From assembly GCF_009914755.1 (NCBI RefSeq), contig NC_060926.1: a stretch of 64,000 nucleotides of DNA; one strand, 5' to 3'. Under the pieces are notes generated by a model. That model searched no databases. It saw only the letters and a program-made list of their open reading frames with translations, and was not told where the DNA came from. Shown here piece after piece: positions 9,682 to 23,500 of this stretch. Made by a program: the position numbers and the translations under genes. Numbering within the stretch: the first letter of the stretch is position 1; each line of letters begins with the position of its first letter. Origin of the DNA: the human T2T-CHM13v2.0 reference genome, Homo sapiens.

Positions 9682-12600
9682 AGAATATTCATTTTGAAAT
9701 ACAAATCTAGCCAAGGAAAGTGATGAGGGACTGTGCTACCAGCCCCAGGTACTAGGCTTTTCCCACAGATTTTTGCAATCCTCGGATTAGGAGATTCCCT
9801 CGTGAGCCTGCGCCACCAGGGCCCTGGGTTTCAAGCACAAAACTGGGCGGCTGTTTGGGCAGGCACTGAGCTAACTACAGGAGGTTTTTTGTACTCCAGT
9901 GGCGCCTGGAACTCCAGAGATACAGGAGAACCGTCCACTTCCCTGGAAAGGGGGCTGAAGCCAGGGAGCCAACCAGCCTCACTCAGCGGGTCCCACTCCC
10001 ATGGAGCCCAGCAAGCTAAGAACCACTGGCTTGAAATTCTCACAGCCAGCACAGCAGTCTGGAGTTGACCTGGGATGGTGAGGGGAGGGGCATCCACCAT
10101 TACTGAGGCTTTAGTAGGCGGTTTTCCCCTGACAGTGCTAAGTAGACTGGGAGGTTTGGACTGGGCAGAATTCACCACAGTGCAGCAAAGCAGCTCCGGC
10201 CAGACTGCCTCTCTAGATTCCTCCTCACTGGGCAGGGCATCTCTGAAAGAAAGGCACCATCCCCAGTCAGAGGCTTATAGATAAAACTCTCATATTCCTG
10301 GGACAGAGTACCTGGGGGAGGGGCAGCTGCTGTGGAAGCTTCAGAAGACTTAATCTTTCCTGCCTGCAGGCTCTGAAGAGAACTGCAGATCCTGACAAGG
10401 GTGACTCTCCCAGCACAGTGCACTAGCTCTGCTAAGGGACAGACTGATTCCTCAAGTGGGTCCCTGACCCCCGTGCCTCCTGACTGGGAGACACCTCCCA
10501 AAAGGGGTCAACAGACACCTCATACAGGAGAGCTCCAGCTGGCATCAAGCCAATGCCCCTCTGGGACAAAGCTCCCAATGGAAGGAGCGGGCAGCAATCT
10601 TTTTTGTTCTGCAACCTCCACTGGTGATACCCAGGCAAACAGGGTCTGGAGTGGACCTCTAGCAAACTGTAGTAGACCTGCAGAAGAGGGGCTTGACTGT
10701 TAGAAGAAAAACTAACAAACAGAAAGCAATGAAAACAATGACATCAACAAAACAGACCCCCCTACAAATACCCCATCCAAAGATCATCAGCCTCAAAGAT
10801 TGAAGGTAGATAAATCCACGAAGATGAGGAAAAACTAGCACAAAAACACTGAAAATTCCAAAAGCCAGAAAGCCTCTTCTCCTCCAAATGATCGCAACTC
10901 CTCTCCAGCAAGGGCGCAAAACAGAACAAAGAATGAGACTCATGAATTGACAGAAGTAGGCTTCAGAAGGTAGGTAATAAACTCCTCTGAGCTACAGAAG
11001 CATGTTCTAACCCAATGCAAGGAAGCTCAGAACCTTGTTAAAAGGTTACAGGAACTGCTAACTAGAGTAACCAGTTTAGAGAGGAACGTAATTGACTTGA
11101 TGGAGCTGAAAAACACAGCTGGAGAACTTCGTGAAGCATACACAAGTATCAATAGCCAAACTGATCAAGCGGAAGAAAGGATACCAGAGATTGAGAACCA
11201 CCTTGCTTAAATAAGGCATGCAGACAAGATTAGAGAAAAAAAGAATGAAAAGGAACAAACAAAGCCTCCAAGAAATATGGGACTATGTGAAAAGACCAAA
11301 CCTACGATTGACTGGTGTACCTGAAAGTGACAGGAAGAATGGAACCAACTTGGAAAACACACTTTAAGATGTTATCCAGGAGAACTTCCCCAACCTAGAA
11401 AGACAGGCCAACATTCAAATTCAGGACATACAGAGAACACCACTAAGATACTACACGAGAAGATCAACTCCAAGATACATAATCATCAGATTCAACAAAG
11501 TTGAAATGAAGGAAAACATTTTAAGGGCAGCCAGAGAGAAAGGTCGGCTTACCCACAAAGGGAAGCCCATCAGACTAACAGCTGATCTCTTGGCAGAAAC
11601 TCTACAAGCCAGAAGAGAGTGGGGGCCAATATTCAACATTCTTAAAGAATTTTCAACCCAGAATTTCATATCCAGCCAAACTAAGCTTCATAAGTGAAGG
11701 AGAAATAAAATCCTTTCCAAACAAGCAAATGCTGAGGGATTTTGTCATCACCAGGCCTGCCTTACAAGAGATCCTGAAGGAAGCAATAATGTGGAAAGGA
11801 AAAACTGGTACAAGCCACTGCAAAAACACACCAAAATATAAAGACTAATGACACTATGAAGAAACTGCATCAATTAGTGTGCAAAATAACCAGCTAGCAT
11901 CATGACAAAATCAAATTCATAGTTACTTAACAATATCAACCTTTAATGTGAATGAGTTAAACGCCCCGATTAAAAGACACAGTCTTGCAAATTGGATAAA
12001 GAGTCAAGACCAATTGGTGTGCTATAATCAGGAGACCTGTCTCACATGCAAAGACACACATAGGCACAAAATAAAGGGATGGAGGAATATTTACCAAGCA
12101 AATGGAAAGCAAAAAAAAAAAAAAAAAAAAAAAAAAGGAGGGGTTGCAATCCTAGTCTCTGATAAAACAGATTTTAAACCAACAAAGATCAAAAAAAGAC
12201 AAAGAAGGACATTACATAATGGTAAAGGAATCAACGCAACAAGAAGAGCTAACTATCCTAAATATATATGCACCCAATCCAGGAGCACCCAGATTCATAA
12301 AACAAGTTCTTAGAGACCTACAAAGAGACTTAGACTCTCACACAATAATAGTGGGACACTCCACTGTCGATATTAGACAGATCAACAACACAGAAAATCA
12401 ACAAGGATATTCAGAACTTGAATTCAGCTCTGGATCACGTGGACCTAATAGACATCTACAGAACTCTCCACCCCAAATCAACAGAATATACATTATCCTC
12501 AGTGCAACATAGCACTTATTCTAATATCAACAACATAATTAGAAGTAAAACACTCCTCATCAAATGCAAAAGAACTGAAATCAGTGCAATCAAATTAGAA

Positions 12601-20514: not shown

Positions 20515-23500
20515 ATGACAGGATCAAATTCACACATAACAATATTAACTTTAAATGTAAATGGACTAAATGCTCCAATTAAAAGACACAGACTGGCAAA
20601 TTGGAAAAAGAGTCAAGACCCATCAGTGTGCTGTATTCAGGAAACCCATCTCATGTGCAGAGACGCACATAGGCTCAAAATAAAAGGATGGAGGAAGATC
20701 TACCAAGCAAATGGAAAACAAAAAAAGGTAGGGGTTGCAATCCTAGTCTCTGATAAAAGAGACTTTAAACCAACAAAGATCAAAAGAGACAAAGAAGGCC
20801 ATTACATAATGGTAAAGGGATCAATTCAACAAGAAGAGCTAACTATGCTAAATATATATGCACCCAATACAAGAGCACCCAGATTCATAAAGCAACTCCT
20901 GACTGACCTACAAAGAGATTTAGACTCCCACACAATAATAATGGGAGACTTTAACACCCCACTGTCAACATTAGACAGATCAACGAGACAGAAAGTTAAC
21001 AAGGATACCCAGGAATTGAACTCAGCTCTGCACCAAGCGGACCTAATAGACATCTACAGAACTCTCCACCCCAAATCAAGAGAATATACATTTTTTTTCA
21101 GTACCACACCACACCTATTCCAAAATTGACCACAGAGTTGGAAGTAAAGCTCTCCTGAGCAAACGTAAAAGATCAGACATTATAACAAACTGTCTCTCAG
21201 ACCACAGTGCAATCAAACTAGAACTCAGGATTAAGAAACTCACTCAAAAATGCTCAACTACATATAAACTGAACAACCTGCTCCTGAATGACTACTGGGT
21301 ACATAATGAAATGAAGGCAGAAATAAAGATGTTCTTTGAAACCAACGAGAACAAAGACACAACATACCAGAATCTCTGGGACACATTCAAAGCAGTGTGT
21401 AGAGGGAAATTTATAGCACTAAATGCCCACAAGAGAAAGAAGGAAAGATCCAAAATTGACACCCTAACATCACAATTAAAAGAACTAGAAAAGCAAGAGC
21501 AAACACATTCAAAGGCTAGCAGAAGGCAAGAAATAACTAAAATCAGAGCAGAACTGAAGGAAATAGAGACACAAAAAACCCTTCAAAAAATTAATGAATC
21601 CAGGAGCTGGTTTTTTGAAAGGATCAACAAAATTGATAGACTGCTAGCAAGACTAATAAAGAAGAAAAGAGAGAAGAATCAAAGAGACGCAATAAAAAAT
21701 GATAAAGGGGATATCACCACTGCTCCCATAGAAATACAAACTACCATCAGAGAATACTACAAACACCTCTATGCAAATAAACTAGAAAATCTAGAATAAA
21801 TGGATAAATTCCTCGACACATACACCCTCACAAGACTAAACCAGGAAGAAGTTGAATCTCTGAATAGACCAATAACAGGCTCTGAAGTTGTGGCAATAAT
21901 CAATAGCTTACCAACCAAAAAGAGTCCAGGACCAGATGGAATCACAGCCGATTTCTATCAGAGGTACAAGGAGGAACTGGTACCATTCCTTCTGAAACTA
22001 TTCCAATCAATAGAAAAAGAGGGAATCCTCCCTAACTCATTTTATGAGGCCATCATCATCCTGATACCAAAGCCTGGCAGAGACACAACCAAAAAAGAGA
22101 GTTTTAGACCAATATCCTTGATGAACATTGATGCAAAAATCCTCAATAAAATACAGGCAAACTGAATCCAGCAGCACATCAAAAAGCTTATCCACCATGA
22201 TCAAGTGGGCTTCATCCCTGGGATGCAAGGCTGGTTCAACATACGCAAATCAATAAATGTAATCCAGCATATAAACAGAACCAAAGACAAAAACTACATG
22301 ACTATCTCAATAGATGCAGAAAAGGCCTTTGACAAAATTCAACAACCCTTCATGCTAAAAACTCTCAATAAATTAGGTATTGATGGGACGTATTTCAAAA
22401 TAATAAGAGCTATCTATGACAAACCCACAGCCAATATCATACTGAATGGGCAAAAACTGGAAGCATTCCCTTTGAAAACTGGCACAAGACAGGGATGCCC
22501 TCTCTCACCACTCCTATTCAACATAGTTTTAGAAGTTCTGGCCAGGGCAATTATGCAGGAGAAGGAAATAAAGGGTATTCAGTTAGGAAAAGAGGAAGTC
22601 AAATTGTCCCTGTTTGCAGATGACATGATTCTATATCTAGAAAACCCCATCATCTCAGCCCAAAATCTCCTTAAGCTGATAGGCAACTTCAGCAAAGTCT
22701 CAGGATACAAAATCAACGTGCAAAAATCACAAGCATTCTTATACACCAATAACAAACAAACAGAGAGCCAAATCATGAGTGAACTCCCATCCACAATTGC
22801 TTCAAAGAGAATAAAATACCTAGCAATCCAACTTACAAGGGACGTGAAGGACCTCTTCAAGGAGAACTACAAACCACTGCTCAATGAAATAAAAGAGGAT
22901 ACAAACAAGTGGAAGAACATTCCATGCTCATGGGTAGGAAGAATCAATATCATGAAAATGGCCATACTGCCCAAGGTAATTTATAGATTCAATGCCATCC
23001 CCATCAAGCTACCAATGACTTTCTTCACAGACCTGGAAAAAACTACTTTAAAGTTCATATGGAACCAAAAAAGAGCCCGCATTGCCAACTCAATCATAAG
23101 CCAAAAGAACAAAGCTGGAGGCATCACGCTACCTGACTTCAAACTATACTACAAGGCTACAGTAACCAAAACAGCATGGTACTGGTATCAAAACAGAGAT
23201 ATAGATCAATGGAACAGAACAGAGCCCTCAGAAATAATGCCGCATATCTACAACTATCTGATCTTTGACAAACCTGAGAAAAACAAGCAATGAGGAAAGG
23301 ATTCCCTATTTAATAAATGGTGCTGGGAAAACTGGTTAGCCATCTGTAGAAAGCTGAAACTGGATCCCTTCTTCACACCTTATACAAAAATTAATTCAAG
23401 ATGGATTAAAGACTTAAACATTTGACCTAAAACCATAAAAACCCTAGAAGAAAACCTAGGCATTATCATTCAGGACATAGGCATGGGCAAGGACTTCATG

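What the first reader, a model, noticed from the sequence alone, without database searches (positions are those of the whole stretch)
11365..21835. Reciprocal exchange between the old E1 and the younger E2/E3
Seen: E1 and E2 share gatGttatccagg (11371/19975) and cctcAcaagactaaacc (13216/21830). E1-type acaccacTaagata (RTPLRY, 11444) appears in E2 (20048) and E3 (28016), whereas E4 has RTPQRY. Conversely, E1 about 11495-11625 carries young-type bases (caaagttgaa, gctgatctct, aaactctaca, gagagtggggg) between old-type flanks (agatcaac, atcatcaga, tcctttcca). Inference: information moved both old-to-young and young-to-old despite clear subfamily divergence, concentrated in the 3' half of ORF1 around the shared motif.
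Basis: partly seen in the sequence, partly recalled or inferred. Interest (0 to 1): 0.75.

Follow-up and report, generated by a model that had tools for sequence, protein, structure and literature searches.

The report
Gene conversion among clustered L1 copies
An old, decayed L1 retrotransposon copy has had about 200 bases overwritten with sequence from a much younger L1 copy a few kilobases away, and two of the young copies have also copied a 351-base stretch between themselves; this is the known process of gene conversion between repeats, and there is no good evidence that sequence also moved from the old copy to the young ones.

Summary
Four L1 copies lie within 30 kb: old E1 and young E2, E3 and E4.

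**Young to old: supported.** I compared E1 with 57 other genomic copies at 129 sites that separate E1's age cohort from the young cohort.
- E1 has the old state at 116 sites and the young state at 10. Seven of those 10 are consecutive (11469-11601).
- In the tract 11486-11711, 6 of 6 sites are young-type, against 4 of 123 outside (p = 3.7e-8).
- E1's private decay is 1.8% in the tract and 6.3% outside.
- Identity to E2-E4 peaks at 96-98% there, against a mean of 84%.
- The tract includes a rare C at 11548: 19 exact 35-mers genome-wide, against 1686 for the G form.
- Its 70-mer occurs in only 7 genomic copies, and 3 of them are E1, E2 and E3.

**Old to young: not supported.**
- E2's E1-like deviations (10 of 82) fall within the control range.
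- The shared G at 11371 and A at 13216 recur in unrelated copies.
- T at 11444 is one of 11 variants shared by E2 and E3 and lies at the edge of a second conversion tract, a 351-bp identical run between E2 and E3 (p about 5e-6).

This is a clear case of a known process.

The parts
10406..13451 (+). E1, 5' part of the old L1 copy (ORF1 and the start of ORF2); recipient of the conversion
   Evidence: blastn against E4 gives 74-81% identity. It is old-cohort at 116 of 129 diagnostic sites. Private decay is 6.3% outside the tract.
14848..17399 (+). E1, 3' part, separated from the 5' part by an unrelated insert at 13452-14847
   Evidence: blastn against E4 gives 84.5% identity. No 150-bp window reaches 93% identity to E2, E3 or E4.
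11486..11711 (+). Conversion tract in E1 at its maximal continuous extent. The certain core is 11494-11601. The left edge lies after the old CpG remnant 'CA' at 11484-85, and the right edge lies before C at 11712.
   Evidence: 6 of 6 diagnostic sites are young-type, against 4 of 123 outside. Private substitutions are 4 of 223 inside and 147 of 2348 outside. Identity to E2-E4 is 96-98%. It carries the rare C at 11548.
19007..24562 (+). E2, a young 5'-truncated L1 in the same orientation as E1
   Evidence: 95% identity to E4. It is young-type at 126 of 129 diagnostic sites.
20048..20398 (+). E2 side of the 351-bp run identical to E3. It contains E2's counterpart of the E1 tract, at about 20090-20320.
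   Evidence: This is the longest exact E2/E3 match. All other pairwise runs are 175 bp or shorter. 1 of 200000 simulations reaches this length.
26736..28342 (-). E3a, the inverted 5' segment of the young copy E3 (E4 positions 1196-2805)
   Evidence: blastn gives 94.4% identity to E4 on the minus strand. It lacks 12 of the subfamily markers that E2 and E4 carry.
27666..28016 (-). E3 side of the 351-bp run identical to E2
   Evidence: The 81-mer carrying the variants at 11592 and 11653 occurs only in E2 and E3 in the whole genome.
28346..30502 (+). E3b, the direct 3' segment of E3 (E4 positions 3868-6036)
   Evidence: Its longest identical runs are 120 bp with E2 and 110 bp with E4, which is unremarkable.
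33875..39934 (-). E4, a young L1 of 6060 bp; an unlikely donor
   Evidence: It has G at 11583 and C at 11601 where E1, E2 and E3 have T. It does not contain E1's 70-mer.

Best explanation
Two non-allelic (interlocus) gene conversions have occurred among L1 copies that lie within 17 kb of each other.

**Event 1.** A break or heteroduplex in the ORF1 3' half of the old copy E1 was repaired from a young neighbour that carried the E2/E3 haplotype. This overwrote roughly 110-226 bp (within 11486-11711). The copied stretch has since gained about 1.8% private change in E1.

**Event 2.** Much more recently, a 351-bp stretch covering the same part of ORF1 was copied between E2 and the inverted 5' segment of E3, together with the donor's private mutations. 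Those include the T at 11444 that gives RTPLRY.

**Shown:** the mosaic structure, the lower decay inside the tract, the rarity of the shared haplotype, and the perfect E2/E3 run.

**Inferred:** the repair mechanism, the identity of the donor (E2 or E3 rather than E4), the direction of event 2, and the dates.

Transfer from E1 into the young copies is not needed to explain anything seen.
For: **Cohort analysis.** The panel was a MAFFT alignment and FastTree of E1-E4, E5 and 57 genomic copies.
- E1 is old-type at 116 of 129 diagnostic sites. Seven consecutive young-type sites lie at 11469-11601.
- 6 of 6 sites are young-type in the tract, against 4 of 123 outside (p = 3.7e-8).
- Four of the seven sites are still old-type in the intermediate cohort.

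**Decay and identity.**
- Private substitutions are 4 of 223 in the tract and 147 of 2348 outside (binomial p = 0.0015). This is the lowest of 23 windows.
- E1's identity to the young copies is 96-98% at 11506-11755, against a mean of 84%.
- The 17 other old copies have runs of 3 or fewer.

**Local donor.**
- The C-type 35-mer at 11548 has 19 exact hits in the genome, 4 of them E1-E4. The G-type has 1686.
- Any copy with E1's exact 70-mer (11521-11590) must be among those 19. It is present in E1, E2, E3 and 4 of the 15 others, and not in E4.

**E2/E3 event.**
- The exact run is 351 bp. Every other pair has 175 bp or less.
- 1 of 200000 simulations reaches it.
- The 81-mer with two of its variants occurs only in E2 and E3 genome-wide.
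- Outside the run, E2 and E3 differ at about 5% and at 12 subfamily markers.
Against: - No outgroup orthologue was available, so the pre-conversion state of E1 is inferred from cohort copies and not observed.
- The left edge is not clean. T at 11469 is young-type, but 11484-85 keeps an old CpG remnant, so the tract is either patchy or 11469 is a chance C-to-T change.
- No donor-private variant is shared with E1. E1 lacks the A at 11592 and the C at 11653 that E2 and E3 carry, so the donor is named only by haplotype (T at 11583, T at 11601, C at 11548).
- Four non-local copies carry the same 70-mer.
- A GENECONV-style permutation on the four sequences alone gave nothing for the E1 pairs (p = 0.07-0.96) and only p = 0.014 for E2/E3. 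Sites where all four copies agree are not counted by that test.
- The panel is the search tool's 'best candidates' (40 of 7478 and 40 of 13707 scored), not a random sample. Cohorts were cut by eye from one tree.
Confidence: 0.85

Rival explanations
1. Reciprocal exchange. In the same or a linked event, E1 bases also moved into E2 and E3 (T at 11444, G at 11371, A at 13216), for instance through heteroduplex repair on the donor.
For: T at 11444 in E2 and E3 is the old-cohort state. It is absent from the 11 young panel copies with data at that site and from all 15 extra copies. It lies only about 45 bp left of the E1 tract.
Against: - E1-like deviations are 10 of 82 in E2, 8 of 39 in E3 and 9 of 77 in E4, within the 7-28% range of the 13 controls.
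- E1's bases at 11427, 11453, 11455, 11464, 11476 and 11484-85 are not in E2 or E3, so any patch could be 25 bp at most and is detached from the main tract.
- G at 11371 occurs in 4 other panel copies. A at 13216 occurs in L053.
- Of the 11 variants shared by E2 and E3, only 3 match E1, which is chance level. A at 11439 is CpG decay.
- Because E2 and E3 share the T through their own conversion, it counts as one event and not two.
Confidence: 0.08
2. The donor was not a genomic neighbour but L1 cDNA or RNA. The cDNA of the young element that was inserting nearby (E2 or E3) was used as the repair template for E1 at the time of that insertion.
For: - The tract's age is compatible with the age of the young insertions. 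E1's private change in the tract is 1.8%. The young copies' private change is 28-31 of 1607 sites, or 1.7-1.9%, and 2.5-3.0% by the broader count.
- cDNA-mediated conversion is described for yeast Ty elements (passage seen in PMC6598467).
Against: Nothing distinguishes this from ordinary DNA-templated conversion. A genomic donor with the right haplotype lies 8.6 kb (E2) and 16.4 kb (E3) away. The second event, between E2 and E3, is far too recent to be linked to an insertion.
Confidence: 0.05
3. No transfer took place. Either E1 descends from a source or intermediate subfamily that already had these bases, or the similarity reflects conservation of the ORF1 3' half together with parallel mutation.
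For: The ORF1 3' half has fewer subfamily differences than the 5' half. By my count from the table, there are 11 diagnostic sites in 11310-11740, against 62 in 10674-11310.
Against: - 0 of 10 peers and 0 of 7 older copies carry the run.
- The intermediate cohort is old-type at 4 of the 7 sites, and E1 is old-type at 16 of 16 outside sites where the intermediates have already switched.
- Decay is lower inside the tract.
- The rare C at 11548 makes up about 1% of exact 35-mers.
- None of the 15 other C-type copies has old flanks around a young block.
Confidence: 0.02
4. Assembly or polishing artefact that homogenised paralogous L1 stretches in this assembly.
For: None was found. It is listed only because a single assembly was examined.
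Against: The E1 tract differs from E2 and E3 by 6 substitutions and a 5-bp deletion, so it is not a pasted copy. Flanks on both sides keep copy-specific variants.
Confidence: 0.01

Closest known systems
Non-allelic gene conversion between Alu elements (an old copy replaced by a young subfamily; higher rates between copies less than 10 kb apart)
   Same: An old, decayed copy acquires young-subfamily diagnostic bases from another copy, and close neighbours are favoured. Passages of PMC6598467 describing Kass et al. 1995 and Aleshin and Zhi 2010 were seen.
   Different: Here the elements are L1 copies of about 6 kb. Only about 200 bp of ORF1 is replaced, and the partners were only about 85-90% identical.
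Repair of a break in a chromosomal LINE by conversion from endogenous LINEs, and intrachromosomal conversion inside human L1 insertions
   Same: L1 sequence is copied into another L1 in short tracts. A passage of PMC1920257 cites Tremblay et al. 2000, with tracts down to 13 bp, and describes a 377-bp segment in an L1 attributed to intrachromosomal conversion.
   Different: Those are cell-culture events or events at new insertions. This is a fixed germline event between long-resident copies of different ages. I could not read Tremblay et al. 2000 itself because it is not held.
Arm-to-arm conversion in inverted repeats (Y-chromosome palindromes)
   Same: E2 and E3a are inverted repeats about 6.5 kb apart (pairs I3 and I12) that share a perfectly identical stretch. 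Only the search listing and abstract start of PMC3723533 were seen.
   Different: The arms here are independent insertions of different subfamily stages. They are about 95% identical, and only short patches are homogenised.

Membership tests
Non-allelic (interlocus) gene conversion tract | A contiguous block of donor-type diagnostic sites flanked on both sides by recipient-type sites | tested here: met
   In E1, 6 of 6 sites are young-type within 11486-11711, against 4 of 123 outside. The flanking sites 11444 and 11737 are old-type.
Non-allelic (interlocus) gene conversion tract | Divergence from the donor class, and the recipient's private decay, are lower inside the tract than outside | tested here: met
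   Private decay is 1.8% inside and 6.3% outside. Identity is 96-98% inside, against a mean of 84%.
Non-allelic (interlocus) gene conversion tract | A plausible donor with the same haplotype is present in the genome | tested here: met
   E1's 70-mer is found in only 7 copies genome-wide, including E2 and E3, which lie 8.6 kb and 16.4 kb away.
Non-allelic (interlocus) gene conversion tract | The orthologous locus in an outgroup shows the unconverted state | not testable with these tools
   No primate genomes are held. Only the window's own assembly could be searched.
Reciprocal exchange (crossover or two-way transfer) | The partner copy carries a matching block of the other copy's diagnostic or private bases | tested here: not met
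   E2 is old-type at 1 of 129 diagnostic sites and E3 at 3 of 70. Neither carries any E1-private base near 11444. E1-like deviations are within the control range.
L1 (LINE-1) primate subfamily ladder | Copies order along a single comb-like lineage with successive diagnostic changes | tested here: met
   The FastTree of 62 copies is ladder-like. The marker 35-mer shared by E2 and E4 has 2696 exact genomic hits. Named subfamilies such as L1PA numbers were not assigned, because no reference library was available.

The most novel reading that the evidence does not exclude
The ORF1 3' segment in this cluster is a recurrent exchange point.
- The same stretch of about 350 bp was converted at least twice: once into E1, roughly 10 million years ago, and once between E2 and E3, within roughly the last few million years.
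- E2 and E3a also share three further unique variants in short identical patches (11285, 11997, 12329).
- The inverted-repeat pair E2/E3a may provoke repeated breaks and repair that spill over to E1.
- The latest event may be specific to the human lineage, or even still polymorphic.
Probability: 0.2. Interest if true: 0.5.

Novelty: new member of a known kind. Interest (0 to 1): 0.3.

Why it matters
Conversion between dispersed repeats blurs subfamily assignment and age estimates based on divergence. It can also move variants between copies.

This locus gives a clean, datable example for L1. A partner only about 85-90% identical was converted over about 200 bp. An inverted pair of young copies holds a perfectly identical 351 bp that may be recent enough to vary among people.

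It does not change the understanding of L1 biology. Its value is as a worked case, and as a warning when dating old L1 copies from their ORF1 region.

Tried and rejected
- **Four-sequence permutation test.** A GENECONV-style test of runs at polymorphic sites was uninformative for the E1 pairs (p = 0.07, 0.96, 0.94), because sites where all four copies agree drop out. I used cohort-diagnostic sites instead.
- **Rare local sub-subfamily.** I first read the markers shared by E2 and E4 as a rare, locally clustered sub-subfamily. One search showed that the marker 35-mer has 2696 exact hits, so it is a major subfamily. Only the C at 11548 is rare.
- **Direction of the E2/E3 event.** Markers at 11583 and 11765 suggested E3 to E2. 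However, L067, a copy of E2's type, has the same states, so the direction stays open.
- **Hotspot motif.** A scan for the degenerate 13-mer hotspot motif (recalled from memory) found 4 matches in the window and none in or near the tracts.
- **Other E1 tracts.** The windows at 12056-12305 and 13056-13205 reach 92-93% identity to the young copies. They are old-type at their diagnostic sites, so they are conserved stretches and not conversions.
- **Pattern searches.** A pattern with N at two places was rejected by the tool's length rule.
- **Other dead ends.** Tremblay et al. 2000 is not held.
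Full report
**Layout.** A blastn of the window against E4, together with the repeat map, shows four L1 copies within 30 kb.
- E1 (10406-13451 and 14848-17399, plus strand) is split by an unrelated insert and is 74-84% identical to E4.
- E2 (19007-24562, plus strand) is 95% identical to E4.
- E3 has an inverted 5' segment (28342-26736) and a direct 3' segment (28346-30502). This is the shape expected from twin priming (a recalled label).
- E4 (39934-33875, minus strand) is 6060 bp long.

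**Reference panel.** The window's own assembly could be searched.
- Two DNA searches with E1 segments gave 58 loci apart from the two self-matches. One of them, L028, is E3 itself and was dropped.
- Only 40 of 7478 and 40 of 13707 candidates were scored, so the panel is the tool's best candidates and not a random sample.
- I aligned E1 10674-13451, its counterparts in E2-E4, another old fragment (E5, 41879-43079) and 57 genomic copies.
- The tree is a ladder, as expected for primate L1.
- From it I cut cohorts by eye: O (7 copies, older than E1), P (10 peers of E1), M (23 intermediates), M2 (3) and Y (13 young genomic copies; E2-E4 fall in this part of the tree but were kept out of the cohort).
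- L010 and L047 were kept out of the cohorts because they are near-duplicates of L030 and L044.
All tests use per-site counts.

**The tract in E1.**
- There are 129 sites where the P and Y majorities (each at least 70%) differ. E1 is P-type at 116, Y-type at 10 and other at 3.
- Seven of the 10 Y-type sites are consecutive (11469, 11494, 11499, 11546, 11554, 11592, 11601). They lie between P-type sites at 11444 and 11737.
- At four of the seven (11469, 11499, 11592, 11601) the intermediate cohort still has the old state (18-22 of 23 copies).
- By my count from the table, E1 keeps the old state at all 16 sites outside the tract where cohort M has already switched.
- E1 keeps 'CA' at 11484-85 where its peers have CG and the young copies have TG. 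The continuous tract therefore starts after 11485.
- At 11712 E1 has C where E2-E4 have A, so the tract ends before that site.
- Within 11486-11711, 6 of 6 diagnostic sites are young-type, against 4 of 123 outside (Fisher p = 3.7e-8).
- E1's unambiguous private substitutions number 4 of 223 in the tract and 147 of 2348 outside (binomial p = 0.0015). This is the lowest of 23 windows.
- Identity of E1 to E2, E3 and E4 in 150-bp windows peaks at 96-98% between 11506 and 11755, against a mean of 84%. That equals the E2-E4 identity over the same stretch.
- A leave-one-out scan of the 17 other old copies gave a longest young-type run of 3.
- The direct four-way alignment shows the same picture.

**Where the tract came from.**
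- At 11548, E1, E2, E3 and E4 all have C. Every cohort has G.
- The C-type 35-mer has 19 exact hits in the 3.1-Gb assembly, and four of them are E1-E4. The G-type has 1686.
- I fetched the 15 other C-type copies. None has old flanks around a young block.
- Any exact copy of E1's 70-mer 11521-11590 must contain that 35-mer. Among the 19, it is present in E1, E2, E3, L067, L068, L071 and L074, and it is absent from E4.
- E4 also has G at 11583 and C at 11601 where E1, E2 and E3 have T.
- The donor therefore carried the E2/E3 haplotype. With two of the six other carriers lying 8.6 kb and 16.4 kb from E1, a local donor is by far the likeliest.
- E1 lacks the A at 11592 and the C at 11653 that E2 and E3 carry. 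At 11591-92 E1 has TG and E2/E3 have CA, and both derive from CG by CpG decay.
- The transfer therefore predates those donor mutations.
- Six substitutions and a 5-bp deletion separate E1 from E2/E3 in the tract. That fits an event several million years old, but the count is small and the date is rough (inference).

**Old to young.**
- For each young copy I counted the sites where it departs from the young majority and asked how many equal E1's base. The results were E2 10 of 82, E3 8 of 39 and E4 9 of 77. The 13 genomic controls gave 7-28%. There is no excess.
- G at 11371 also occurs in 4 of 56 panel copies, in three cohorts.
- A at 13216 also occurs in L053. Neither E1's nor E2's neighbouring specific bases are shared there.
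- T at 11444 is absent from the 11 young panel copies with data at that site and from the 15 extra copies. It is nonetheless a single site. E1's bases at 11427, 11453, 11455, 11464, 11476 and 11484-85 are not in E2 or E3.
- The T is one of 11 variants that E2 and E3 share against E4, and only 3 of the 11 match E1. One of those three, A at 11439, is CpG decay also seen in L066 and L067.

**A second conversion, between E2 and E3.**
- E2 20048-20398 and E3 28016-27666 (minus strand) are identical over 351 bp.
- The longest identical run for any other pair, over up to 5.4 kb, is 175 bp.
- With 70 differences in 1607 columns, 1 of 200000 random placements gives a run this long.
- In the same interval, each of them differs from E4 at about 10 sites.
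- The run carries T11444, A11592, C11653 and C11783, which none of the other young copies examined carries. The 81-mer holding two of these variants occurs only in E2 and E3 genome-wide.
- Outside the run, E2 and E3 differ at about 5%. E3 also lacks 12 markers that E2 and E4 share.
- One of those markers belongs to a major subfamily, with 2696 exact hits. The two copies are therefore independent insertions of different stages, and the run is a recent copy-over.
- Zero differences in 351 bp suggests an event within the last few million years (inference).
- The direction is unresolved.
- Three further variants unique to E2 and E3 (11285, 11997, 12329) lie outside the run. Two of them sit in the next-longest identical patches, which hints at older exchanges.

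**Comparison with what is known.**
- Conversion of old Alu copies by young ones, and a higher rate between copies less than 10 kb apart, are described in passages of PMC6598467.
- L1-to-L1 conversion in break repair, and an intrachromosomal conversion inside a human L1, are mentioned in passages of PMC1920257.
- Three literature searches did not turn up a description of this locus. They were not exhaustive, and I make no claim of absence from print.
- This is a new, well-resolved instance of a known process.

**What stays open.**
- The outgroup state of E1.
- The donor's identity, and the direction and date of the E2/E3 event.
- Whether the overlap of the two tracts reflects a local hotspot. 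Chance overlap is roughly 10-35% by my estimate, and no hotspot 13-mer lies there.

Noticed in passing
window 21105-21265 (E2; E1 coordinates 12482-12642): E2 has 11 private differences in about 160 bp, roughly three times its average. Only one of them matches E1. This could be a patch copied from an unlinked L1, or a mutation cluster.
   Followed up: no
G000 C2 31.54, 35.02 and 35.12 Mb; C7 158.10 and 158.29 Mb (loci L061-L063, L067, L068): Of the 19 genomic copies with the rare C-type 35-mer, 7 lie on chr2 between 31.5 and 36.1 Mb (4 of them in this window), and 2 lie 190 kb apart on chr7. L061 and L063 carry the same marker set as E2 and E4. The regional clustering is unexplained.
   Followed up: partly
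window 13452-14847: An insert of about 1.4 kb splits E1. It contains four copies of a 68-nt unit at 14103-14408 (family D19). From memory it resembles an LTR12-type solo LTR. This was not tested.
   Followed up: no
window 19182-19306: E2's match to E4 is interrupted by about 125 bp that has no counterpart in E4.
   Followed up: no
loci L044/L047 (G000 C10 92.32-92.33 Mb) and L010/L030 (C23 118.42-118.56 Mb): These two pairs of L1 copies are nearly identical to each other in the tree, with near-zero branch lengths. L044 and L047 are on opposite strands about 7 kb apart. They are probably recent segmental or inverted duplications.
   Followed up: no
window 12113-12137: A run of about 26 A lies inside E1's ORF2 5' region, where the other copies have a short A run.
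   Followed up: no
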